Part shown: positions 32,412 to 60,144 of the stretch, one piece after another | How positions within the stretch are numbered: position 1 is the stretch's first letter | How the letters are laid out: every line of letters starts with the position of its first letter | From: a virus | Lineage: Duplodnaviria; Caudoviricetes | Length of the DNA: 63,589 nt | Reading direction: 5' to 3' (one strand) | IMG/VR virus record: IMGVR_UViG_3300026094_000847 | Location: 1-63,589 of that record | The notes under the pieces: model-generated | Database searches by the model: none | Told to the model about the DNA's origin: nothing | Seen by the model: only the letters and a program-made list of their open reading frames with translations | Position numbers and translations under genes: made by a program

Positions 32412-32711
32412 CTATAATAAGCCATGTTCAAGACGCGTTGCTTCAGGCACCATTTCTAGTGTAAACGGAGGGTCGAATGTAACATCTACTTCAACACTGT
32501 TTACTCCTTCTAACTGCATAGGAGCCTGCCTGATATCATTGCAGATTTCGTCAGCAAAAGGACACATAGGCGATGTAAGTGTATGCAGAATCTTTACGTG
32601 ATCGCCTTCAACTTCTACATTATAGATTATCCCAAGATCCTGTACATTAATACTGATTTCAGGATCGTATACCTCTCTCAAAACATTTTTTACATCATCA
32701 ACTGTTACCAT
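32412..32711 (-). CDS. DUF59 (SufT/PaaD/MIP18) Fe-S cluster assembly protein
   Basis: VYDPEISINVQDLGIIY, TLTSPMCP, FDPPFT. Confidence 0.9.
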   Translation of the reverse strand: MVTVDDVKNVLREVYDPEISINVQDLGIIYNVEVEGDHVKILHTLTSPMCPFADEICNDIRQAPMQLEGVNSVEVDVTFDPPFTLEMVPEATRLEHGLL

Positions 32712-34162
32712 ACTTTTACTCCATATGTGTTTTCAAATTCTCGTGCGTCCTGTTCTGAATTTACCATGGGTCTGCCTTTCATATTTAGGCTGGTATTGAG
32801 CAGTACAGGACACCCTGTTTCTTTGTACCAGGCTTCTAGCAGTTTGCGAAAGCCTGTGTTGTCGTCTTTGCCTACTGTTTGAACTCTAGCAGTACCATCA
32901 GCATGTACAACTGCTGGTATTGCTTCAGGGTCCTTAACCACCGCCGTAGACTGCATATAAGGGCCTACAACCCCGTCGAAATAGTCTTGGGCATGCTCGG
33001 CCAGCACCGCAGGAGCAAACGGCCTAAATTGCTGGCGTTTTTTAATTTCATTTACCCTTTGTTTGTTATCATGTGTTCTAGGATCAGCCAGCAGACTTCT
33101 ATTGCCCAGCGCTCTTGGGCCATACTCGGCAGGCCCATTGGCCACACCACACAGACCGTTAGAAACAAGGTCCTGTATCACGGGTTTAATAGGGTATGGA
33201 CGTTTTATGTTATACCCTAGATAAGGCCCCTGCCAATCTATGCGCATATTATAATGCCCTAAAACAGCACCCACAGCAGATCCTGCATCTCCCGGGTTGG
33301 GCATAATCCACACGCTGTCGTAATACTTGTAGGCCAAACTGTTTGCGCTACAGTTTAGTGCGCACCCTCCCATCAGCACTAGGTTCTTACTGGGCAAACG
33401 TTGTTCAGTGTAACGCAAAACAGATTCTAACATCTCTTCGTATATTTTTTGCGTTGCCGCCGCAATATCAAATCTATCTTGCTCTGTGTTTAAATCAGGC
33501 CTCCACCACTTACACCCGCGGTGCAGATTTTGTTTGAATGTGATGTCGGGATGGCCTATGCGGTTAACAAAATCGTTTAAAATTTCTTTTCGATATTTGT
33601 TAGGATCGCCGTATGCAGCCATGCCCATGAGAATGTATTCGTCCTCGTTAGGCTTTAGACCCACACGCTGTGTCATGGCCGAATACCATAATCCTACAGA
33701 GTGAGGATAGCTTTGAGAGTATGCTTTGGTTAGATTGTTGCCCTGTCCTTCCCAAACAGTGAGTGTTTCAAATTCACCAATCGAGTCAATAACGACCACA
33801 GTGGCGTCATCATAAGGGCTAGTAAAAAAACCAGCGGCAGCATGGCTACGATGGTGACTGCAATAATCAACTGTAGAATTAACCCCATAACCGCGCAGAT
33901 AAGCGCGAATGTCATTATCACGCCGCCGCCAACCTTGGCCTGCCCGTATCTGTCTAACTGTCTTTCTAAATGGTCTCTCATACCAAACTACTTTGTCTGG
34001 CTCGCCCCAACGTCGAGCATATTCTATTAGTTTAGTATTTAAGTGAGGATCATTTTTTATGCCGCTGAAGCGCTCGCTGTGCGAAGCAAATTCTAGTTTG
34101 TTTTCTGCGAACACAGCCAAGGCGGCATCGTGACTGTTAGCACTTATACCCCATGTTATCAT
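32705..34162 (-). CDS. carbamoyltransferase (NodU/CmcH family)
   Basis: HDAALA, SERFS, HHRSHAA, MGMAAYG, GGCALN, EYGPRALGNRS, FRPFAP, LNTSLN. Confidence 0.95.
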   Translation of the reverse strand: MITWGISANSHDAALAVFAENKLEFASHSERFSGIKNDPHLNTKLIEYARRWGEPDKVVWYERPFRKTVRQIRAGQGWRRRDNDIRAYLRGYGVNSTVDYCSHHRSHAAAGFFTSPYDDATVVVIDSIGEFETLTVWEGQGNNLTKAYSQSYPHSVGLWYSAMTQRVGLKPNEDEYILMGMAAYGDPNKYRKEILNDFVNRIGHPDITFKQNLHRGCKWWRPDLNTEQDRFDIAAATQKIYEEMLESVLRYTEQRLPSKNLVLMGGCALNCSANSLAYKYYDSVWIMPNPGDAGSAVGAVLGHYNMRIDWQGPYLGYNIKRPYPIKPVIQDLVSNGLCGVANGPAEYGPRALGNRSLLADPRTHDNKQRVNEIKKRQQFRPFAPAVLAEHAQDYFDGVVGPYMQSTAVVKDPEAIPAVVHADGTARVQTVGKDDNTGFRKLLEAWYKETGCPVLLNTSLNMKGRPMVNSEQDAREFENTYGVKVW

Positions 34163-34273: not shown

Positions 34274-35287
34274 TTATTCTTCATTCTGTTTAATCCTGTT
34301 GAGCATGTGCTTTTTAGCAATTTCGCACTTGATAGATCCGTGCTGTGCCGTTTGTATTGCATCTACAAGCACAAATAATTCGCCGTATTTATTGACAGCA
34401 TCATTGGCATCTTTGACATCAAGATCCCAGTTGGGGAATGCAACACCCCAGTCTAGATCTACTGCGTCGTTAATTAAATTCATCCCCGCTCTATCTTGAT
34501 CGGGTATCACAATTACCTCTCTGCCCAGCTGATTGATGATTTTTGCCTGCTGTTCGTGTATGCGATTTGTAAGAAGAGCAACTCCGCCTGTGGCCAATGC
34601 ATCAAACGGGCCTTCGCACACAAATATAAATCGTTGATCTGGATTTTGTCTGTCTGCATTGAACACAAAGTTTGGATGCTGTTCACTGAGGTACTTGGGC
34701 TTTCCTGCTGTTACTTTTCTTGCAGTATACCCAACGATTCGGTTATGAAATTTGAAAGGCAATATCACACGACTTTCGAATCCGTCTAACGGAGACCAGT
34801 AAAAGTTTTCGTCGGTAGGATTAAATCCTCGATTGACTATGTATTCTACCACATATGCTAGCGCAGTCTCTGTGTTTAGATCTAGATCTTCTTCTATCCA
34901 TTCTCTAATTGGCTGAGCGCCTTCAGGCAGCTTTTTATCTTCAAATGCTACACGACTGTTTGATTCTTTCGGAATATATTCGGGCGATTCGGTTTTAAGT
35001 GCCTCGAACACAAGTTCTTTGATGTCGTCTTCGTCAGCACCTAGCCAATAGCAAAAACTTTTAAGTTTAGGACTAATAGTTCTGCCAGGCTGCCAACTTG
35101 TAGAAAACTTACAATTAAAACAATTATATATGAAGCCTGTATCTATTTTTACGCCGCCGCGTTTTCTACGATCAGGCTTGTGTCCTCGATGTACACAGCA
35201 CGGCGCATTAAAGCTAATCCAGCCACTGGGACTGGGTTTAGCGTTTAGCGGCAACAGTGACTTTAATTTGTCTAGAACAAACGTCAT
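34274..35287 (-). CDS. DNA primase (Zn finger + TOPRIM)
   Basis: FNAPCC...YNCFNC, VGYTAR, PKYL, CEGPFDA, PDQD.AG, KDAND. Confidence 0.9.
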   Translation of the reverse strand: MTFVLDKLKSLLPLNAKPSPSGWISFNAPCCVHRGHKPDRRKRGGVKIDTGFIYNCFNCKFSTSWQPGRTISPKLKSFCYWLGADEDDIKELVFEALKTESPEYIPKESNSRVAFEDKKLPEGAQPIREWIEEDLDLNTETALAYVVEYIVNRGFNPTDENFYWSPLDGFESRVILPFKFHNRIVGYTARKVTAGKPKYLSEQHPNFVFNADRQNPDQRFIFVCEGPFDALATGGVALLTNRIHEQQAKIINQLGREVIVIPDQDRAGMNLINDAVDLDWGVAFPNWDLDVKDANDAVNKYGELFVLVDAIQTAQHGSIKCEIAKKHMLNRIKQNEE

Positions 35288-36414: not shown

Positions 36415-36786
36415 ATGAAGATTTCAGATAACTTACAGGAAAATTTTCCGTTTATAAGCGTTATAAACCATACCGATAAAGAGTATGTAGGAATCATAAT
36501 CAATCAAGATGCTAATATAACCAGCATGTATGATTACGAAGCTCTTAGAACCGATGTAGAAAAACAGGCGTTGCTTGATCTTGGAGAAGCATGGTGGTGG
36601 GAAAGCAATAGGAGTATTCCTATAAATATTTTTCTCAATAAAGAAATACAACCGTTTGCCTACTGCATAAAAAATTTTAACAGTAAAGATGTTAAGGTTT
36701 TGCTAGGGCCAGCAACCAGTTTGAACGACTTTGTGGTTAAAAGAGTTAAAAGAAAATCAATTACATTAGTTAAAAAAACTAACTAA
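36415..36786 (+). CDS. conserved phage hypothetical protein
   Basis: EYVGII.N.D, WWWESNRSIPINIFL. Confidence 0.75.
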   Translation: MKISDNLQENFPFISVINHTDKEYVGIIINQDANITSMYDYEALRTDVEKQALLDLGEAWWWESNRSIPINIFLNKEIQPFAYCIKNFNSKDVKVLLGPATSLNDFVVKRVKRKSITLVKKTN

Positions 36787-37327
36787 CAAATTTGAACCAA
36801 CCGGTTGCAATTATTTTTTCTTGTTCACTACTTACAATTCCTCTATGTAGGTGTGTGAAGTCAGCAGGCCATATTACACTTAGTCCTTTTACGGCTTCTA
36901 ATTTAAAATCTTGATAATACCATTCGGTTCCGCCACTACTCACAGTATTGAGATATGTCATATACACAAGTTGTCTTGACGCATCGCCATTATCACGTTC
37001 ATAATGCCATACTTTATATCCTCCGCCGGGTGGATAGAATTGTATTAAGTTAGTTTGTTCAGTAACTAAATTAAAATGGTCGATTCCAAATCTATTTACA
37101 TAGCCTTCGTAACCATTTTGCAAATGATTAAAGTAATCGACAATGGCCGGATGGGTCGAGTGGTTGTAAAAAAGTAAATCTGTTGACTGCTTAACTGCAA
37201 AATCTACAATGCCTGTATTACCTACAGACCCGATATGTCTATATTCGTCGCTTGCAATCTTAAAATATTCAAGTAAATTATCGCAAACATATTCGGGCAT
37301 TGTCCAAGTATGAATAAAATTTTCCAT
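36779..37327 (-). CDS. 2OG-Fe(II) oxygenase
   Basis: YPPGGGYKVWHYE, YMTYLN, GGTEW, WPADFTHLHRG, KIIATGW. Confidence 0.9.
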   Translation of the reverse strand: MENFIHTWTMPEYVCDNLLEYFKIASDEYRHIGSVGNTGIVDFAVKQSTDLLFYNHSTHPAIVDYFNHLQNGYEGYVNRFGIDHFNLVTEQTNLIQFYPPGGGYKVWHYERDNGDASRQLVYMTYLNTVSSGGTEWYYQDFKLEAVKGLSVIWPADFTHLHRGIVSSEQEKIIATGWFKFVS

Positions 37328-37893
37328 TATTTTATGTTTTCTGTGAGTAAATTCATATGCACAATGCATGCCATCGCATAAGAAACAGCATGTGCTTTCT
37401 TAAAGTAGTATGAACCATCAGCTGGCTTAGTCCACACTTCCTTTTGTATAGTCTTCCACGTTTCGTCTACTAAATGACGTTTTGCAGGACGAATTATTGC
37501 TAGTACGGCCGCTAACTGTTCTACGTTTTGCGGTTTCAATTTCTTCAATATCTCTGAGTGTCCTGATAGGTGAAACACCTGATCTACAAACTCTTGGTGT
37601 TCTAAAAGTTCCCATAGAGGCTCCTTATTAATTAGATGCTGTAGATGATCTTCGTCCTTTACATCTTTGTATATGCTTACATTTAAGAAATCGATCTTAA
37701 AATAACCTTTGGCCTCGGCCTGCTTGTAAGGAACCGAGCAAAGGCTAGTTTTAGCATCAACAGGAACTTCGTGCATGTACACGCCGGTGTTGTGTTTGGC
37801 TAATTCGTCGTCCTCTAACCGGCTTGCGGTAATATGATTGAAATATTCTAAAGCCTTGTCTCTATCTACAAAATCGATGTCTATGTCAGGCAT
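37327..37893 (-). CDS. miniature DnaE-like (Pol III alpha palm/fingers) protein
   Basis: MPDIDIDF, KHNTGVY, YFKIDFLN, LAAVLAIIRP, FKKAHAVSYA. Confidence 0.8.
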   Translation of the reverse strand: MPDIDIDFVDRDKALEYFNHITASRLEDDELAKHNTGVYMHEVPVDAKTSLCSVPYKQAEAKGYFKIDFLNVSIYKDVKDEDHLQHLINKEPLWELLEHQEFVDQVFHLSGHSEILKKLKPQNVEQLAAVLAIIRPAKRHLVDETWKTIQKEVWTKPADGSYYFKKAHAVSYAMACIVHMNLLTENIK

Positions 37894-37926: not shown

Positions 37927-38424
37927 TTACATATAATTTAAATTAATTGTAATTCTAAATTGTTCGTCTGTGCAATTTGTGCTACGATGAGGGGTTGCTG
38001 AATTGAATATTAACAGACGGTTTTCTATAGATTCAACTTTAGTTCCATCACTTAATATTGTAAATCCATCATTGCTGTTTACATAGTATACGGCACCCTT
38101 ATGAGGAACTTCAAAATCTTTATGCCAATCATGTTCCTGCAGGCTACTAGTAGATGGAAAACAGTTTCCTTTTACACGCATAAGTGCAGTCATATTAAGT
38201 TTTTGACATATTGGTAGAGCAATAACATTAAAGAAAGGACTAGTAGGTTGATAATCTTTGTAGAAAGAATGATAAAGATAACCTACAGGAAAATCTTCAT
38301 TATTATGTGCCACATATCGTGAAATATACCACGGAACTGCATCTATATTGTTTCCTAAACAAGATCTTTGTATCTGTTCGGAAATATCTTTATCTAAAAA
38401 GTTATCAATAATTTTATATGTCAT
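37927..38424 (-). CDS. 2OG-Fe(II) oxygenase-like protein
   Basis: IIDNFL, WHKD, YYVNSNDGFT, ENRLLIF, HRST, RITINLNY. Confidence 0.8.
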   Translation of the reverse strand: MTYKIIDNFLDKDISEQIQRSCLGNNIDAVPWYISRYVAHNNEDFPVGYLYHSFYKDYQPTSPFFNVIALPICQKLNMTALMRVKGNCFPSTSSLQEHDWHKDFEVPHKGAVYYVNSNDGFTILSDGTKVESIENRLLIFNSATPHRSTNCTDEQFRITINLNYM

Positions 38425-38624
38425 TGTATTCTTGTAGATCCATGTAGCAGAATAGGTAACACTTCTGCAAGCGTAGTTGCGTATTCCTCTGCATCTAATT
38501 CGCTATCAAAGCCTTCGAACTGTACAAGCACTTTGCTCTTAGTGTATCTCACATCGATATCGATGCTTTCGCTCGGCAGTATCCATTCTTCTTTTCTAGG
38601 CAGTCCGGTATCTTTTTCCGTCAT
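38421..38624 (-). CDS. hypothetical protein
   Basis: Operon-coupled ORF; start MTEKD. Confidence 0.55.
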   Translation of the reverse strand: MTEKDTGLPRKEEWILPSESIDIDVRYTKSKVLVQFEGFDSELDAEEYATTLAEVLPILLHGSTRIQ

Positions 38625-39304
38625 TGTATATTTGCCTCTTTTATTACATCCTTGCAGAGTTCGTGATCTGCAGGTCTTGCTTGAAATCGTTTTTTCCAAT
38701 ACATAGGATCTATTAACGACCCTACAATCTCTAACTGCTCGTCGTTCATATTTCCTAACATCTTTTTTCCAGCCTTGCTGTTGAGTATAACCCAGGGACT
38801 TATTCTACCCTGCCTTATATCATTTGCTGCTCTGTTTAAATTTACATACAAAAAATAATGTTCCCATTCTGCGTCTTTTTCGTCTGCCCAATCCATCATA
38901 TTTTGTATTGTGCGTTGTATGGCTCCGTCGGCTGGTTCGGTTTTAATAAGATTAATAAGATATTTATCGTATAATTCGTCTCTGCACCAGTGATCTAACT
39001 TAACACCGCTAGTCACCACATAGTCAATAAATCTTTCAGGATATATAGGTTTGGTGTTAACCAGGAAGCTTCCAAATTTTATAAAAGCATTATAGTACGG
39101 ACTATTAGTAAAATCTTCAAAGGTTTTTGGCTTTTTTCCTTTCTGTGCAATTTCATAGAATTTCTGATAGGTTAACAATCCCATTTGACTGTGTTTTTCG
39201 GTACGAGCAAGATACCTGCGCTTTTTTTCGCACACATGCACAATGAGAGTTTTTTCTTTGGCAAATTTTTTGCCACAGTGTTCACACTTATAATTTAATT
39301 CCAT
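38621..39304 (-). CDS. C2H2-like zinc-finger protein
   Basis: YKCEHCGKKF..EKTLIVHVCE. Confidence 0.75.
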   Translation of the reverse strand: MELNYKCEHCGKKFAKEKTLIVHVCEKKRRYLARTEKHSQMGLLTYQKFYEIAQKGKKPKTFEDFTNSPYYNAFIKFGSFLVNTKPIYPERFIDYVVTSGVKLDHWCRDELYDKYLINLIKTEPADGAIQRTIQNMMDWADEKDAEWEHYFLYVNLNRAANDIRQGRISPWVILNSKAGKKMLGNMNDEQLEIVGSLIDPMYWKKRFQARPADHELCKDVIKEANIQ

Positions 39305-39755
39305 TGATTGCTTTTTTATCCCAGCCTAGGTCTTCACAGTATTGCTTGATTTCTTTGTCTGTCGAAATAGCAGCAAGTGCAGCAATGTCAGCTCTTTTCA
39401 TATTAGGGAACAGTGTTGCAAGAAACTCTTCGCGTTTGTTCTTTTCCTTTTTAATTTTCAGCCACGGATGAAACTTAATGTTTTTGTCTTCTGCGGCGCA
39501 ACTGCATGCCAATTGCCAACACAGTTTCGGATGTCGATTTAAGAACTGAAAAAGATGTTTGTTATAACGTTCATTGGTAACAACACAAGCATGTTCTTGT
39601 GTTTCTCGATTTCCATTTACATTAGATAGATATCTATTTAGAGTAAAGAACACAACACTCTTTCGTTGATCTTCTGTTAGCTCATCCCAAACGTATTTGG
39701 CATCCATGTCACATGCCGCAAGTATTTCATTTAATTTTAGTTTGTCTTCAGCCAT
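39288..39755 (-). CDS. possible clamp-loader small subunit (T4 gp62-like)
   Basis: Size, F.LNRYLS...NE...HPKL.W...F.PW.K pattern and replication context; remote similarity only. Confidence 0.45.
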   Translation of the reverse strand: MAEDKLKLNEILAACDMDAKYVWDELTEDQRKSVVFFTLNRYLSNVNGNRETQEHACVVTNERYNKHLFQFLNRHPKLCWQLACSCAAEDKNIKFHPWLKIKKEKNKREEFLATLFPNMKRADIAALAAISTDKEIKQYCEDLGWDKKAINGIKL

Positions 39756-58156: not shown

Positions 58157-59833
58157 ATGAGTGCAAAATTAGACGAAGTAGAAAAGCTAGTAGAGGCTTT
58201 TGAAAGGCAACTGCCAGAAGGCAAAGAATACGAAGACAGGTTAAGAGAAGAACTAGAAATAATAGCAGATCTCAACTTTTCTAAACATTTTCTTAGAGTG
58301 GTAGAGATATTAAATCTCACCAAAGATATTCCGCATATTACTCGGGGCTCAGCAGGCAGCAGTCTTATTTGTTGGCTATTAGGTATATCCGATGTAGATC
58401 CTATTAAAGAAAGAATCCCCTTGTCACGATTTATGAATCCCAAGCGAGACGATTTACCAGATATAGATCTAGATTTTCCACATTGGAAACAAGATACTGT
58501 AATGCAGAGAATATACAAACGCTGGCCGGGACAGAGTGCAAGGGCGTCAAACTATGTGACATATAAAGAAAAGAGTGCTGTTAGAGAAGCCGCAAAACGA
58601 TTTGGCGCTCCGGGAAATCTCAAACGAGGTTTTAAACTAGAAGAAGTTATAGACAAAGACTATATTAAAGATGCAGAAAAACTTGCACAGAAATTAAAAG
58701 GTAAAAAACGCTGTATCTCTAAACATTGCGGCGGTGTGCTTATATTTGACAGACCCGTTCCTAAAAGTCTTTTAAATGCTGAGAATCAAATACTGCTAGA
58801 CAAATATGAAATTGAAGATTTAGATCATTTTAAAATAGACATATTAGCTAACAGAGGGTTAAGTCAGTTGTGGCACATTTCAGATCAGCATCTTTTAGAT
58901 TATCCAGAGCATGATGAAGCAACCGCAGAACTGTTATCATCTGGCGATGTTCTAGGCGTAACACAAGCAGAATCACCTGCAATGAAAAGACTATGCAAAG
59001 CCATCAAACCGCAATCGAGAGAAGACTGTGTGCTTGCCACAGCACTAATACGTCCAGTAGCAACAATGGGTAGACGCAAGGCCAGCTTTTTTCAAGATTG
59101 GAGCCAAGATAACTTTAGTAAAACTATTGTGTACGAAGACGATGCCATAAGCCTAATATCGGAAATCCTTGGTTGCGACCATTATGAAGCAGATATGTGG
59201 AGGAGAGCGTTTGCTAAGAAAAACGAAGAAAAAATATTTGAATTTATGCGTCTCGTTGGAGATCATCCGCGCAAAGATGAAGTTTTTATGGCTCTTAAGG
59301 AACTAAGTCATTTTGGGCTATGCAGAGCGCACGCAATTAATCTAGGCAGACTAATATGGTCTCTTGCATACGAAAAAGCACACAATAGGAGAGATTTTTG
59401 GACAGCCGCATTAAAACACTGCAAAGGATCATATGCTCGTTGGGTATATTGGCACGAAGCTAAATTAGCAGGCTCTGTGCCCAGTATTACTGAAGGCGAC
59501 GAAGTTACTGAACTACAACAGCTAGGAAAATGGCGAAGCGGCCGTTTTATACCAGGCTGTCAAGAGATTAGAAAGCCCGGACAGATTGAATTTTGTGGCT
59601 TAGTGGCCAACTATAGAGTATTTAAAAGCGGTCCAAAAGAATACATAACATTTGTTACTTTGGGCACAGGCAATGGCAAATATCTTGATGTTATTCTTAA
59701 AGGAGCCAACAGTTTTAGAGACAAACAACTGCTTTGGGGGAGAGGTAAATTGGGATATAAAAATAACTCAGAATATGTTAGTGTATACAAGTATAAAAAA
59801 TTAGCACTTAAAGAGGTTGAACATCTACAATGA
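58157..59833 (+). CDS. dnaE: DNA polymerase III alpha-like (DnaE), PHP domain absent
   Basis: RGSAGSSL..WLLGI..VDP, RFMNP.R.DLPDIDLDF, KHCGG, KIDILA, ALIRP, RAHA. Confidence 0.88.
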   Translation: MSAKLDEVEKLVEAFERQLPEGKEYEDRLREELEIIADLNFSKHFLRVVEILNLTKDIPHITRGSAGSSLICWLLGISDVDPIKERIPLSRFMNPKRDDLPDIDLDFPHWKQDTVMQRIYKRWPGQSARASNYVTYKEKSAVREAAKRFGAPGNLKRGFKLEEVIDKDYIKDAEKLAQKLKGKKRCISKHCGGVLIFDRPVPKSLLNAENQILLDKYEIEDLDHFKIDILANRGLSQLWHISDQHLLDYPEHDEATAELLSSGDVLGVTQAESPAMKRLCKAIKPQSREDCVLATALIRPVATMGRRKASFFQDWSQDNFSKTIVYEDDAISLISEILGCDHYEADMWRRAFAKKNEEKIFEFMRLVGDHPRKDEVFMALKELSHFGLCRAHAINLGRLIWSLAYEKAHNRRDFWTAALKHCKGSYARWVYWHEAKLAGSVPSITEGDEVTELQQLGKWRSGRFIPGCQEIRKPGQIEFCGLVANYRVFKSGPKEYITFVTLGTGNGKYLDVILKGANSFRDKQLLWGRGKLGYKNNSEYVSVYKYKKLALKEVEHLQ

Positions 59834-60144
59834 TATATAGGTCGAGACTGCATTTATATCCTCACAAAGAACCGCAAGGCAAATCGTACATTGTCGGAGA
59901 AAAACGCGCTCTAAAAGAACTTGCTCGAGCATTGGATCGAGCCGCAAACGGACACATTGGCATTGATAATGTAAAATTATACTCTAGCGACGGTCATGAA
60001 TACGAAGTAATTATTGCCAAGGACATTGCAGAAGAAGAGTGGCAGAATCTACAATTACCTTACGAAAAAAATGCTTCGCCCGATGTGTTAGAATCAATCC
60101 AGTTGTGGGAAAGCATAAGAGAAGAATGCAAGCAGGACTATTAA
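59830..60144 (+). CDS. hypothetical protein
   Basis: ATGA overlap with dnaE; YSSDGHEY. Confidence 0.65.
   Translation: MIYRSRLHLYPHKEPQGKSYIVGEKRALKELARALDRAANGHIGIDNVKLYSSDGHEYEVIIAKDIAEEEWQNLQLPYEKNASPDVLESIQLWESIREECKQDY

What the first reader, a model, noticed from the sequence alone, without database searches (positions are those of the whole stretch)
37327..37893. 188-aa miniature C-family polymerase retaining all three catalytic aspartates
Seen: PDIDIDF at the very N-terminus, then KHNTGVY, FKIDFL, AIIRP and FKKAHAVSYA, in the DnaE order but with the intervening thumb/finger segments deleted. Established: bacterial DnaE exceeds 1000 aa and uses DxD plus a third Asp in K.D.L. Internal deletions that keep every motif argue for a streamlined functional enzyme rather than a decaying fragment. 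It lies in the helicase/primase region. Inference: a minimal nucleotidyltransferase for primer extension, DNA or protein nucleotidylation, or signalling.
Basis: partly seen in the sequence, partly recalled or inferred. Interest (0 to 1): 0.75.

Follow-up and report, generated by a model that had tools for sequence, protein, structure and literature searches.

The report
Half of a split mini-DnaE polymerase
This small giant-phage gene is real and strongly conserved, but it encodes only the metal-binding half of a miniature, two-gene relative of the bacterial replicative DNA polymerase, a family already described from sequence in 2021 and apparently never tested at the bench.

Summary
D3, D5, K66, D68 and P136 are invariant in 88 homologues. 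dN/dS is about 0.10. The AlphaFold model (pLDDT 97) matches only Pol III alpha among solved structures.

It is not a stand-alone enzyme. It starts exactly at the DxD strand and lacks the glycine-serine NTP-binding half of the palm. In relatives that half is a separate 155-185-aa gene (phrog_11127), tens to hundreds of kb away. One natural N+C fusion exists. A predicted heterodimer scores 0.91 against a best control of 0.20.

This is the C-terminal unit of the split minimal Pol III alpha of group 2.2 jumbo phages (Iyer et al. 2021, PMC7824862). The scan has met it before on other DNA. The partner gene is not in this 17%-complete record.

The verdict is already known and still biochemically untested.

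Three extras were noticed:
- The gene sits in a fixed helicase-primase block.
- It contains a conserved nested reading frame.
- The phage also carries an unsplit 558-aa DnaE cassette.

The parts
37327..37893 (-). C-terminal (metal- and template-binding) unit of a split minimal Pol III alpha, 188 aa
   Evidence: The ORF is. phrog_11778 matches with E=3.4e-68. AlphaFold gives pLDDT 97.2. Foldseek ranks 1-14 are Pol III alpha chains. dN/dS median is 0.10.
37870..37890 (-). PDIDIDF strand: D3 and D5 (metal ligands by homology) and D7
   Evidence: D3 and D5 are invariant and D7 is at least 90% conserved in 88 sequences. The strand aligns to Taq Pol III alpha 461-468 (MPDIDTDF). In the predicted heterodimer it contacts N-unit residues 146-159.
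37777..37797 (-). KHNTGVY palm strand that follows the deleted thumb
   Evidence: H34 and G37 are at least 90% conserved. It aligns to 'KHCGGV' of the window's own 558-aa DnaE.
37684..37701 (-). FKIDFL: K66 and the third aspartate D68
   Evidence: K66 and D68 are invariant. They align to E. coli K553/D555 and Taq K616/D618 by position in the alignments.
37486..37500 (-). AIIRP finger motif
   Evidence: R135 is at least 90% conserved and P136 is invariant. The motif aligns to the 'RPG' of E. coli and Taq Pol III alpha.
37375..37404 (-). FKKAHAVSYA finger helix
   Evidence: K165, H168 and A173 are at least 90% conserved. The helix aligns to 'FNKSH(S/A)AAYA' of E. coli 756-765 and Taq 809-824.
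38621..39304 (-). Conserved upstream neighbour (227 aa, phrog_11058, weak C2H2 zinc-finger hit); context only
   Evidence: A homologue lies upstream of the C-unit in 83 of 83 loci.
36415..36786 (+). Conserved convergent downstream neighbour (123 aa, phrog_11637, unknown function); context only
   Evidence: It is present in 83 of 83 loci, with a median offset of 485 nt. Its fold has no significant PDB match.
34274..35287 (-). DnaG-type primase of the same conserved block; context only
   Evidence: Toprim_2 and DNAG_N hits. It lies downstream of the C-unit in 76 of 83 loci; the misses are loci where no homologue was found in the DNA held, some of them cut by contig ends.
41412..42866 (-). Superfamily-2 DNA helicase of the same conserved block; context only
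   Evidence: ResIII and Helicase_C hits and phrog_16. It lies upstream in 70 of 83 loci.

Best explanation
The ORF encodes the C-terminal subunit of a two-chain, stripped-down Pol III alpha (DnaE-type) polymerase. This enzyme is a core gene set of Rak2/PA5oct/Atu_ph07-like (group 2.2) jumbo phages.

This chain supplies the three metal-binding aspartates (D3, D5, D68), K66 and a reduced finger region (R135-P136, K165/K166, H168). A second protein of about 155-185 aa is encoded far away in the genome (phrog_11127, invariant WGVGRGS motif). It supplies the NTP-binding glycine-serine loop and the neighbouring beta-strand.

The two chains associate non-covalently; there is no room for an intein. 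Together they rebuild one Pol-beta-like nucleotidyltransferase palm of about 360 aa. That core has no PHP, thumb, clamp-binding or OB domains.

Shown here: homology, conservation, fold, split architecture in relatives, co-occurrence, one natural fusion, and fixed position in the helicase-primase block.

Inferred: that the pair binds, that it polymerises DNA, and that it serves the phage replisome beside the family B polymerase, for example in primer extension or repair.
For: Family and homology:
- phrog_11778 matches with E=3.4e-68.
- The family profile hits nine distinct PDB sequences at E<=0.01, all nine Pol III alpha. D68/K66 fall on E. coli D555/K553 and D3/D5 on the Taq MPDIDTDF strand.
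- D3, D5, K66, D68 and P136 are invariant in 88 sequences of 29-58% identity.
- 85 of 89 full-length representatives start with DxDxD within 30 residues.

Fold: AlphaFold gives pLDDT 97.2 and pTM 0.89. Foldseek ranks 1-14 are Pol III alpha chains, with TMq 0.39-0.54.

Selection: dN/dS has a median of 0.10 (range 0.064-0.203) over 112 pairs.

Split partner in relatives:
- N-unit ORFs of 169-177 aa ending '...EFL(N/K)' are present in 3 of 3 complete isolate genomes, which lack an unsplit DnaE.
- An N-unit is present in 2 of 5 large partial contigs.
- The N-unit is found in 93 phage records against 96 for the C-unit. Six of the nine genera listed in both tables have identical counts: Escherichia 34/34, Pseudomonas 11/11, Erwinia 8/8, Salmonella 8/8, Xanthomonas 4/4, Yersinia 4/4.
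- The N-unit alignment has an invariant WGVGRGS motif.

Natural fusion: P0202 (375 aa) matches the N-unit profile over residues 24-185 (probability 99.7%) and the C-unit over residues 190-369.

Predicted complex: window C-unit with the N-unit of relative G002. ipSAE was 0.91 in three runs, best of 3 controls 0.20. The mark was reached by 58 of 80 solved complexes and 2 of 110 mismatched pairs. Runs agree in at least 80% of contacts and the partner's pLDDT is 73-74. C residues 2-9 pair with N residues 146-159.

Synteny: the block is conserved in 83 of 83 loci.

Literature: Iyer et al. 2021 describe exactly this split in group 2.2 phages (passages).
Against: - No N-unit is present in this window. 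tblastn with three N-units and the phrog_11127 profile found only the homologous N-terminus of the unsplit 558-aa DnaE. The record is only 17% complete, so presence in this phage is assumed, not shown.
- G001 is 79% complete and also shows no N-unit in the DNA held.
- The complex used a stand-in partner from a relative whose C-unit is 65% identical. Halves of a split protein can pass by likeness to solved single-chain DnaE structures, so the pass shows likeness rather than binding.
- The monomer folds confidently on its own.
- No thumb, clamp-binding or OB domain is present. Templated, processive synthesis is not assured.
- I found no bench data (searches, open-access library only).
- Pfam models do not reach their cut-offs.
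Confidence: 0.8

Rival explanations
1. Stand-alone miniature polymerase or nucleotidyltransferase. The 188-aa chain by itself binds NTP and metal and catalyses nucleotidyl transfer.
For: All three aspartates and the finger residues are invariant or nearly so. The monomer model is very confident. No partner gene is visible in the window.
Against: - The chain starts at the DxD strand and lacks the glycine-serine NTP-binding loop that every Pol-beta-like nucleotidyltransferase has (a family feature recalled, not tested by a call).
- That loop is in a co-distributed separate gene.
- It is fused to the C-unit in P0202.
- The predicted interface places that loop's strand against residues 2-9.
Confidence: 0.05
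2. A two-chain enzyme as above, but not a templated DNA polymerase. It could be a terminal transferase, a nucleotide-signal synthase, or an enzyme that nucleotidylates DNA or protein.
For: The thumb, clamp-binding and OB domains needed for duplex grip and processivity are absent. A family B polymerase of 887-892 aa is present in 3 of 5 relatives and could do the bulk synthesis. This phage also has an unsplit DnaE.
Against: The retained finger motifs (RP, FKKxH) are the DnaE ones. The gene sits invariably between helicase and primase. No signalling or effector genes are conserved beside it.
Confidence: 0.1
3. In this particular phage the C-unit works with, or regulates, the co-resident unsplit 558-aa DnaE rather than with an N-unit.
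For: Both genes lie in one 63.6-kb window and no N-unit was seen there.
Against: - The two proteins are only about 27% identical over 115 aa.
- The 558-aa gene is a lineage-specific two-gene cassette, absent from 3 complete isolates and 5 large relatives that keep the C-unit.
- A contig carrying a 78%-identical copy of the cassette does encode a true N-unit.
- The 558-aa protein already has its own DxD strand.
Confidence: 0.03
4. A decaying fragment or pseudogene of a full-length DnaE.
For: It is one sixth of DnaE length. Pfam does not reach its cut-offs.
Against:
- 421 cluster representatives match at 50% clustering.
- Catalytic residues are invariant.
- dN/dS is about 0.10.
- Synteny holds in 83 of 83 loci.
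Confidence: 0.01

Closest known systems
Split minimal DNA polymerase III alpha of group 2.2 jumbo phages, C-terminal Mg2+/template-binding unit (Iyer, Anantharaman, Krishnan, Burroughs, Aravind 2021, Viruses 13:63, PMC7824862); PHROG phrog_11778
   Same: It has the same architecture: about 190 aa starting at DxD, with the N-terminal NTP-binding unit in a distant gene. It occurs in the same phage group (Atu_ph07, Rak2-like, PA5oct, XacN1, SCTP-2). It is accompanied by T4-like replication genes and, in relatives, a family B polymerase.
   Different: Nothing essential differs. This copy is from an uncultured phage, 56% identical to the best isolate (Phosso). Here it is flanked by two variable 2OG-Fe(II) oxygenase genes, and the phage additionally carries an unsplit DnaE. 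I saw only text passages and the figure legend of the paper, not Figure 3b or the supplements. The equation with their family therefore rests on the description, not on accession numbers.
Bacterial replicative Pol III alpha / DnaE (E. coli 2hnh, Taq 2hpi/3e0d/4iqj, M. tuberculosis 5lew/7pu7)
   Same: It has a Pol-beta-like palm with DxD plus a third Asp in K-x-D-x-L, and the RP and FNKSH finger motifs, in the same order. It is the only significant structural and sequence match in the PDB.
   Different: It is 188 aa against 910-1220 aa. It has no PHP domain, no N-terminal palm half with the glycine-serine loop, no thumb, a truncated finger region, and no clamp-binding, OB or tau-binding parts.
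Compact unsplit phage DnaE-like polymerases (PB1-like Pseudomonas phages, Streptomyces and Mycobacterium phages; phrog_405), including the window's own 558-aa protein at 58157-59833
   Same: They are phage-borne, lack a PHP domain and keep the same catalytic motifs.
   Different: They are single chains with the glycine-serine loop, thumb and full fingers. Identity to the 188-aa protein is only about 27% over 115 aa.
Intein-free two-gene DnaE of other huge phages, noted elsewhere in this scan (e1-5377904, e1-5645089 and others; AI notes, not checked here)
   Same: One active site is built from two chains cut just before the catalytic aspartates.
   Different: Those are described as full-size replicative DnaE in adjacent genes. 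Here the enzyme is minimal and the two genes are far apart. I did not test those notes.

Membership tests
Split minimal Pol III alpha, C-terminal unit (phrog_11778; Iyer et al. 2021) | Full-length match to the family profile | tested here: met
   phrog_11778 matches with E=3.4e-68, residues 3-186 on profile positions 8-194 of 197.
Split minimal Pol III alpha, C-terminal unit (phrog_11778; Iyer et al. 2021) | A chain of about 190 aa that begins at the DxD strand and keeps the three acidic metal ligands | tested here: met
   The protein starts MPDIDIDF. D3, D5 and D68 are invariant in 88 sequences. 85 of 89 representatives start with DxDxD.
Split minimal Pol III alpha, C-terminal unit (phrog_11778; Iyer et al. 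2021) | A separate N-terminal NTP-binding unit encoded elsewhere in the same genome | tested here: inconclusive
   It was not found in the window, but the record is only 17% complete. It is present in 3 of 3 complete isolates, 2 of 5 large relatives and a contig with the same 558-aa cassette. It occurs in 93 phage records against 96 for the C-unit.
Split minimal Pol III alpha, C-terminal unit (phrog_11778; Iyer et al. 2021) | Group 2.2 jumbo-phage context: T4-like replication genes and a family B polymerase | tested here: inconclusive
   A gp32-like SSB, a RecA/UvsX-like protein, a primase and a helicase are in the window. No family B polymerase is in the window. One of 887-892 aa is present in 3 of 5 relatives.
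Split minimal Pol III alpha, C-terminal unit (phrog_11778; Iyer et al. 2021) | The two units assemble into one active polymerase | not testable with these tools
   Only a prediction is available: ipSAE 0.91 against a best control of 0.20, with a stand-in partner. One natural fusion exists.
C-family polymerase catalytic subunit (DnaE/PolC; Pfam PF07733 + PF17657) | Pfam NTPase-domain and finger-domain models above the gathering score | tested here: not met
   PF07733 gives no hit. PF17657 scores 18.2 bits against a cut-off of 22.
C-family polymerase catalytic subunit (DnaE/PolC; Pfam PF07733 + PF17657) | A complete Pol-beta-like palm on one chain, with the glycine-serine NTP loop as well as the three Asp | tested here: not met
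   The chain starts at the DxD strand. The WGVGRGS loop lies in the separate N-unit family.
C-family polymerase catalytic subunit (DnaE/PolC; Pfam PF07733 + PF17657) | PHP, thumb, clamp-binding and OB domains | tested here: not met
   Only phrog_405 positions 441-454, 576-678 and 777-810 of 1190 are matched. There are no other Pfam hits.
C-family polymerase catalytic subunit (DnaE/PolC; Pfam PF07733 + PF17657) | Homologous palm/finger fold | tested here: met
   Foldseek ranks 1-14 are Pol III alpha chains, with probability 0.72-1.00. All nine profile hits in the PDB are Pol III alpha.

The most novel reading that the evidence does not exclude
The two-chain mini-Pol III may be the primase-coupled primer-extension polymerase of these T4-like jumbo phages. 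That would make it a functional analogue of eukaryotic Pol alpha or of B. subtilis DnaE (recalled). It would be recruited through the invariant neighbours (the 227-aa zinc-finger-like protein, the 155-aa protein and the convergent 123-aa protein), which would replace the missing thumb and processivity parts, and it would hand over to the family B polymerase. In this phage a third, unsplit DnaE cassette would add a further division of labour.
Probability: 0.15. Interest if true: 0.65.

Novelty: already known. Interest (0 to 1): 0.3.

Why it matters
The family is the smallest known version of the bacterial replicative polymerase fold, and its active site is apparently built from two separately encoded chains. 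It is very abundant in environmental phages: two searches were capped at about 8000 hits each. As far as my searches of the open-access library show, it has not been tested at the bench.

For this scan, the value of the result is to file the finding correctly. It is a rediscovery of the published split mini-Pol III, not a new stand-alone nucleotidyltransferase.

A reconstitution experiment would still be informative about the minimal requirements of C-family polymerases. It would also help explain why phages that already have a family B polymerase keep this enzyme.

Tried and rejected
- Looked for the N-unit inside the window, by tblastn with three isolate N-units and with the phrog_11127 profile. 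Only the N-terminus of the unsplit 558-aa DnaE answered.
- Tried to prepare an alignment for folding the natural fusion P0202 with N- and C-units as rows (A3). MAFFT misplaced the N-units (about 13% identity to the first row), so the alignment was not used and the fusion was not folded.
- Folded the invariant neighbour p123 (pLDDT 76.7) and searched the PDB. There was no match at E<=0.001; the best was E=0.18, with weak Sm/Hfq-like hints. Its role stays unknown.
- PHROG and Pfam scans of the conserved neighbours gave only 'unknown function' families and one weak C2H2 hit.
- Checked whether the 188-aa gene is a recent truncation of the window's 558-aa DnaE. It is not: identity is 27% over 115 aa.
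- Megablast of 15 kb of the window against isolate phages gave no match.
- The 2026 jumbo-phage review (PMC13282480) has 0 occurrences of the polymerase III terms I searched. The PA5oct omics paper and the RsoM2USA paper gave nothing on this gene.
- The earlier-findings look-up by place returned nothing for this genome.
Full report
**Observation**

The ORF at 37327..37893 on the minus strand is real. It encodes 188 aa from an ATG with an AGGA 8 nt upstream. It carries all the quoted motifs in DnaE order:
- PDIDIDF at residues 2-8
- KHNTGVY at 33-39
- FKIDFL at 65-70
- AIIRP at 132-136
- FKKAHAVSYA at 164-173

Pfam alone barely sees it. The finger domain PF17657 scores 18.2 bits against a cut-off of 22, and PF07733 gives no hit. 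The phage family phrog_11778 ('DNA polymerase') matches end to end with E=3.4e-68.

Against the 1190-position phage DnaE profile phrog_405, only positions 441-454, 576-678 and 777-810 are matched.

**Family, conservation and selection**

- tblastn finds the protein in 96 isolate phage records. All are matched over at least 80% of its length at under 60% identity. The 40 records listed are jumbo phages of 286-490 kb except one of 141 kb: Phosso 56%, Atu_ph07 53%, PA5oct 49%, XacN1, RaK2/K64-1 39%, 121Q and others.
- In metagenomes, 7961 of the 8000 scored candidates passed E<=0.001. The 120 listed are 185-195 aa.
- Among clusters at 50% identity, 421 representatives pass E<=0.001. Of the 150 listed, 89 are 180-235 aa, 60 are shorter (apparently fragments), and one is 375 aa.
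- Of the 89 full-length representatives, 85 start with DxDxD within the first 30 residues. Two have DxD only and two have neither; those two look mis-started and were dropped.
- In the alignment of the window protein with the remaining 87 (29-58% identity), D3, D5, K66, D68 and P136 are invariant. D7, A23, H34, G37, P44, W94, P121, A128, R135, K165, H168 and A173 are at least 90% conserved.
- Among 81 gene copies (window plus 80 IMG/VR loci), 138 pairs had 80-99.5% protein identity. Of these, 112 pairs had 0.05<dS<2. Their dN/dS has a median of 0.10 and a range of 0.064-0.203.

The gene is under strong purifying selection. It is not a decaying fragment.

**Fold and residue mapping**

AlphaFold2 with this alignment gives pLDDT 97.2 and pTM 0.89. 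In the Foldseek search of the PDB, ranks 1-14 are Pol III alpha chains from Taq, M. tuberculosis and E. coli (E from 3.3e-4, TMq 0.39-0.54). Three hits have E<=0.001, and unrelated folds start near E=0.6.

The family profile hits nine distinct PDB sequences at E<=0.01, and all nine are Pol III alpha. In those alignments:
- The N-terminal strand falls on Taq 461-468 (MPDIDTDF).
- K66/D68 fall on Taq K616/D618 and E. coli K553/D555.
- RP falls on the RPG of both enzymes.
- FKKxH falls on FNKSH (E. coli 756-760).

That D401/D403/D555 (E. coli) and D463/D465/D618 (Taq) are the catalytic aspartates is recalled from the literature, not from a call.

**Why it is not a stand-alone enzyme**

The chain begins exactly at the DxD strand. 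In full-length DnaE, and in the window's own 558-aa DnaE, that strand is preceded by about 100 residues containing the glycine-serine loop ('RGSAGSS').

In three complete isolate genomes (Phosso, K64-1, PA5oct), the DnaE profile finds two small ORFs and no unsplit DnaE. One is the C-unit. The other is an N-unit of 169-177 aa that ends '...WG(V/L)GRGSS...EFL(N/K)', which is where the C-unit would continue.

The two genes lie 34-44 kb apart in K64-1 and PA5oct and more than 180 kb apart in Phosso and Atu_ph07. In five large IMG/VR relatives (45-79% complete), the C-unit is present in 5 of 5 (they were chosen for it) and the N-unit in 2 of 5, more than 100 kb away.

The N-unit is phrog_11127. It is as abundant as the C-unit: 7993 and 7984 of 8000 scored candidates passed. 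It has an invariant W-G-V-G-R-G-S motif in 119 sequences.

It occurs in 93 isolate records against 96 for the C-unit. Of the nine genera listed in both tables, six have identical counts: Escherichia 34/34, Pseudomonas 11/11, Erwinia 8/8, Salmonella 8/8, Xanthomonas 4/4 and Yersinia 4/4. Klebsiella is 11 for the C-unit against 10 for the N-unit.

One of the 150 best representatives, P0202 (375 aa), is a natural fusion. Residues 24-185 match the N-unit profile (probability 99.7%, E=3.8e-27) and residues 190-369 match the C-unit.

Neither unit has room for intein halves, so assembly would be non-covalent. This last point is inference.

**Predicted assembly**

I folded the window's C-unit (alignment A1) with the N-unit of relative G002 (alignment A2). 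Results:
- The score was 0.91 in each of three runs, and the best of 3 controls was 0.20.
- The mark was reached by 58 of 80 solved complexes and 2 of 110 mismatched pairs.
- The runs agree in at least 80% of contacts.
- The partner's pLDDT is 73-74.
- C residues 2-9 (the DxD strand) lie against N residues 146-159 (the WGVGRGS strand and loop). The FKKxH helix (165-178) touches N residues 152-178.

Two caveats apply. The partner is a stand-in from a phage whose C-unit is 65% identical. The two halves resemble one solved chain, so the pass shows likeness to DnaE architecture rather than proven binding.

**The partner in this phage**

The window is the whole IMG/VR record, and CheckV puts it at 17% complete. 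Neither tblastn with three N-units nor the phrog_11127 profile finds an N-unit. Both hit only the N-terminus of the unsplit 558-aa DnaE.

Because relatives keep the two genes tens to hundreds of kb apart, absence from 63.6 kb is expected but leaves the point open. G001 (79% complete) also lacks an N-unit in the DNA held.

**Context**

In 83 of 83 loci (80 IMG/VR plus 3 isolates), two neighbours are fixed:
- A homologue of the 227-aa protein (38621-39304, phrog_11058) lies upstream of the C-unit.
- A convergent homologue of the 123-aa protein (36415-36786, phrog_11637) follows it, at a median offset of 485 nt.

The other block genes, with misses that include loci cut by contig ends:

| Gene | Loci with homologue |
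|---|---|
| 155-aa protein | 81 of 83 |
| Virion-structural-like protein | 76 of 83 |
| Primase | 76 of 83 |
| Helicase | 70 of 83 |

The two 2OG-Fe(II) oxygenase genes that flank the C-unit here are variable inserts, found in 9 of 83 and 2 of 83 loci.

A family B polymerase of 887-892 aa is present in 3 of 5 relatives and none is in the window.

**Literature**

Iyer et al. 2021 (PMC7824862) is the key source. I read passages of sections 3.4.1 and 3.5 and the legend of Figure 3. I did not see the figure or the supplements.

[quoted passage not shown] It accompanies the family B polymerase and possibly serves one strand or repair.

That is this family. The identification rests on the match of description, since I did not see their accession numbers.

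Other papers:
- Attai et al. 2018 (PMC6102473, passages) annotated a Pol III alpha subunit in Atu_ph07.
- Weinheimer and Aylward 2022 (PMC9123017, passages) report PF07733 in 51.9% of one marine jumbo-phage cluster.

I found no bench test of the split enzyme. The searches were made, and searches returned essentially only Iyer et al. This covers the open-access library only.

**Earlier notes of this scan**

The same family was met on other DNA (e1-5963995, e1-5697564, e1-5696816) with the same verdict. I reached my reading before opening them, and they agree with it.

Note e1-5322465 gave the lead on a nested reading frame, which I tested (see below).

**Verdict**

This is a functional, streamlined DnaE derivative, but it is half of a published two-gene enzyme rather than a self-sufficient minimal nucleotidyltransferase.

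Novelty: already known. This copy is a further, uncultured member. Its biochemical role remains open and would be straightforward to test by reconstitution.

**Side observations**

*(a) Nested reading frame.* A 62-codon ATG frame lies inside the gene at 37427-37615, in frame +2, with AAGGAG 5 nt upstream.
- An ATG frame of at least 55 codons at the same place occurs in 55 of 71 distinct gene copies, against 1 of 71 in frame +1.
- A stop-free run of at least 60 codons occurs in 56 of 71 copies. In 100 synonymous-codon shuffles the mean was 3.2 and the maximum 9.
- dS is lower in the overlapped part (0.73 against 1.25 and 0.98), but in only 59 of 102 pairs.
- The nested product is poorly conserved: median identity 31%, against 61% for the host frame.
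- The copies are related, so the counts are not independent.

*(b) Unsplit DnaE cassette.* A 558-aa unsplit, PHP-less DnaE (58157-59833; PF07733 E=9e-43) and a 104-aa ORF form an opposite-strand cassette between the SSB gene and the 661-aa gene.
- Relatives G005 and G001 have a 222-aa or a 110-aa ORF at that position.
- 16 IMG/VR contigs carry the cassette.
- In all 4 of the contigs that are 90-96% identical, the SSB and UvsX-like genes lie beside it as in the window.
- The 11 contigs that are 70-78% identical show none of the window's flanking genes within 6 kb.
- The remaining, 55%-identical short contig shows neither flanking genes nor the 104-aa ORF.
- Three such contigs (29-32% complete), searched with the C-unit protein, lack a C-unit; positive controls answered. 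The phrog_11778 profile had also found none in all five such contigs, but without a working control.
- One of these contigs has a true N-unit.

Noticed in passing
window 37427-37615 (minus strand, frame +2 of the C-unit gene): A 62-codon ATG frame with AAGGAG 5 nt upstream is nested in the polymerase gene. The same frame is open (ATG frame of at least 55 codons) in 55 of 71 distinct homologous genes, against 1 of 71 in frame +1. A stop-free run of at least 60 codons occurs in 56 of 71, against a mean of 3.2 (maximum 9) in 100 synonymous-codon shuffles. dS is lower in the overlap (0.73 against 1.25 and 0.98) but in only 59 of 102 pairs, and the product is poorly conserved at 31% median identity. 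This matches the earlier scan note e1-5322465.
   Followed up: partly
window 58157-60144 (plus strand): An unsplit, PHP-less 558-aa DnaE (PF07733 E=9e-43, with glycine-serine loop, DxD, third Asp and fingers) plus a 104-aa ORF form an opposite-strand cassette inserted between the SSB gene and the 661-aa gene. Relatives G005 and G001 have a 222-aa or a 110-aa ORF there. The cassette sits in other contexts in the 70-78% identical copies. The phage thus carries two different C-family polymerase systems. The best isolate-collection match is an uncultured 484-kb phage at 37% identity.
   Followed up: partly
window 36415-36786 (+) and 38621-39304 (-), 39288-39755 (-): Three genes of unknown function (phrog_11637, phrog_11058 with a weak C2H2 hit, phrog_11758) flank the C-unit in 83, 83 and 81 of 83 loci. 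The 123-aa protein is always convergent and immediately downstream. Its model (pLDDT 76.7) has no significant PDB match. They could be partners of the mini-polymerase.
   Followed up: partly
L136:583-990 (G006), L098:1822-2205 (G002), L009:1761-2222 (Phosso), L010:1741-2082 (PA5oct): A small protein (113-153 aa, phrog_14844, motif '...NARGD.LGPGG...') lies immediately downstream of the N-unit gene in the 4 genomes where ORFs of at least 100 aa showed it. In K64-1 no ORF of at least 100 aa was seen there. Its function is unknown.
   Followed up: no
window 36779-37369 and 37927-38424 (minus strand): Two 2OG-Fe(II) oxygenase-like genes bracket the C-unit. They are variable inserts, with homologues in 9 and 2 of 83 loci. 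An internal ATG of the downstream one overlaps the C-unit stop codon as TAATG at 37325-37329, which suggests translational coupling.
   Followed up: no
window 32705-34162 (minus strand): A 485-aa ORF that by eye resembles carbamoyltransferases lies just downstream of the primase. It was not scanned against any library.
   Followed up: no
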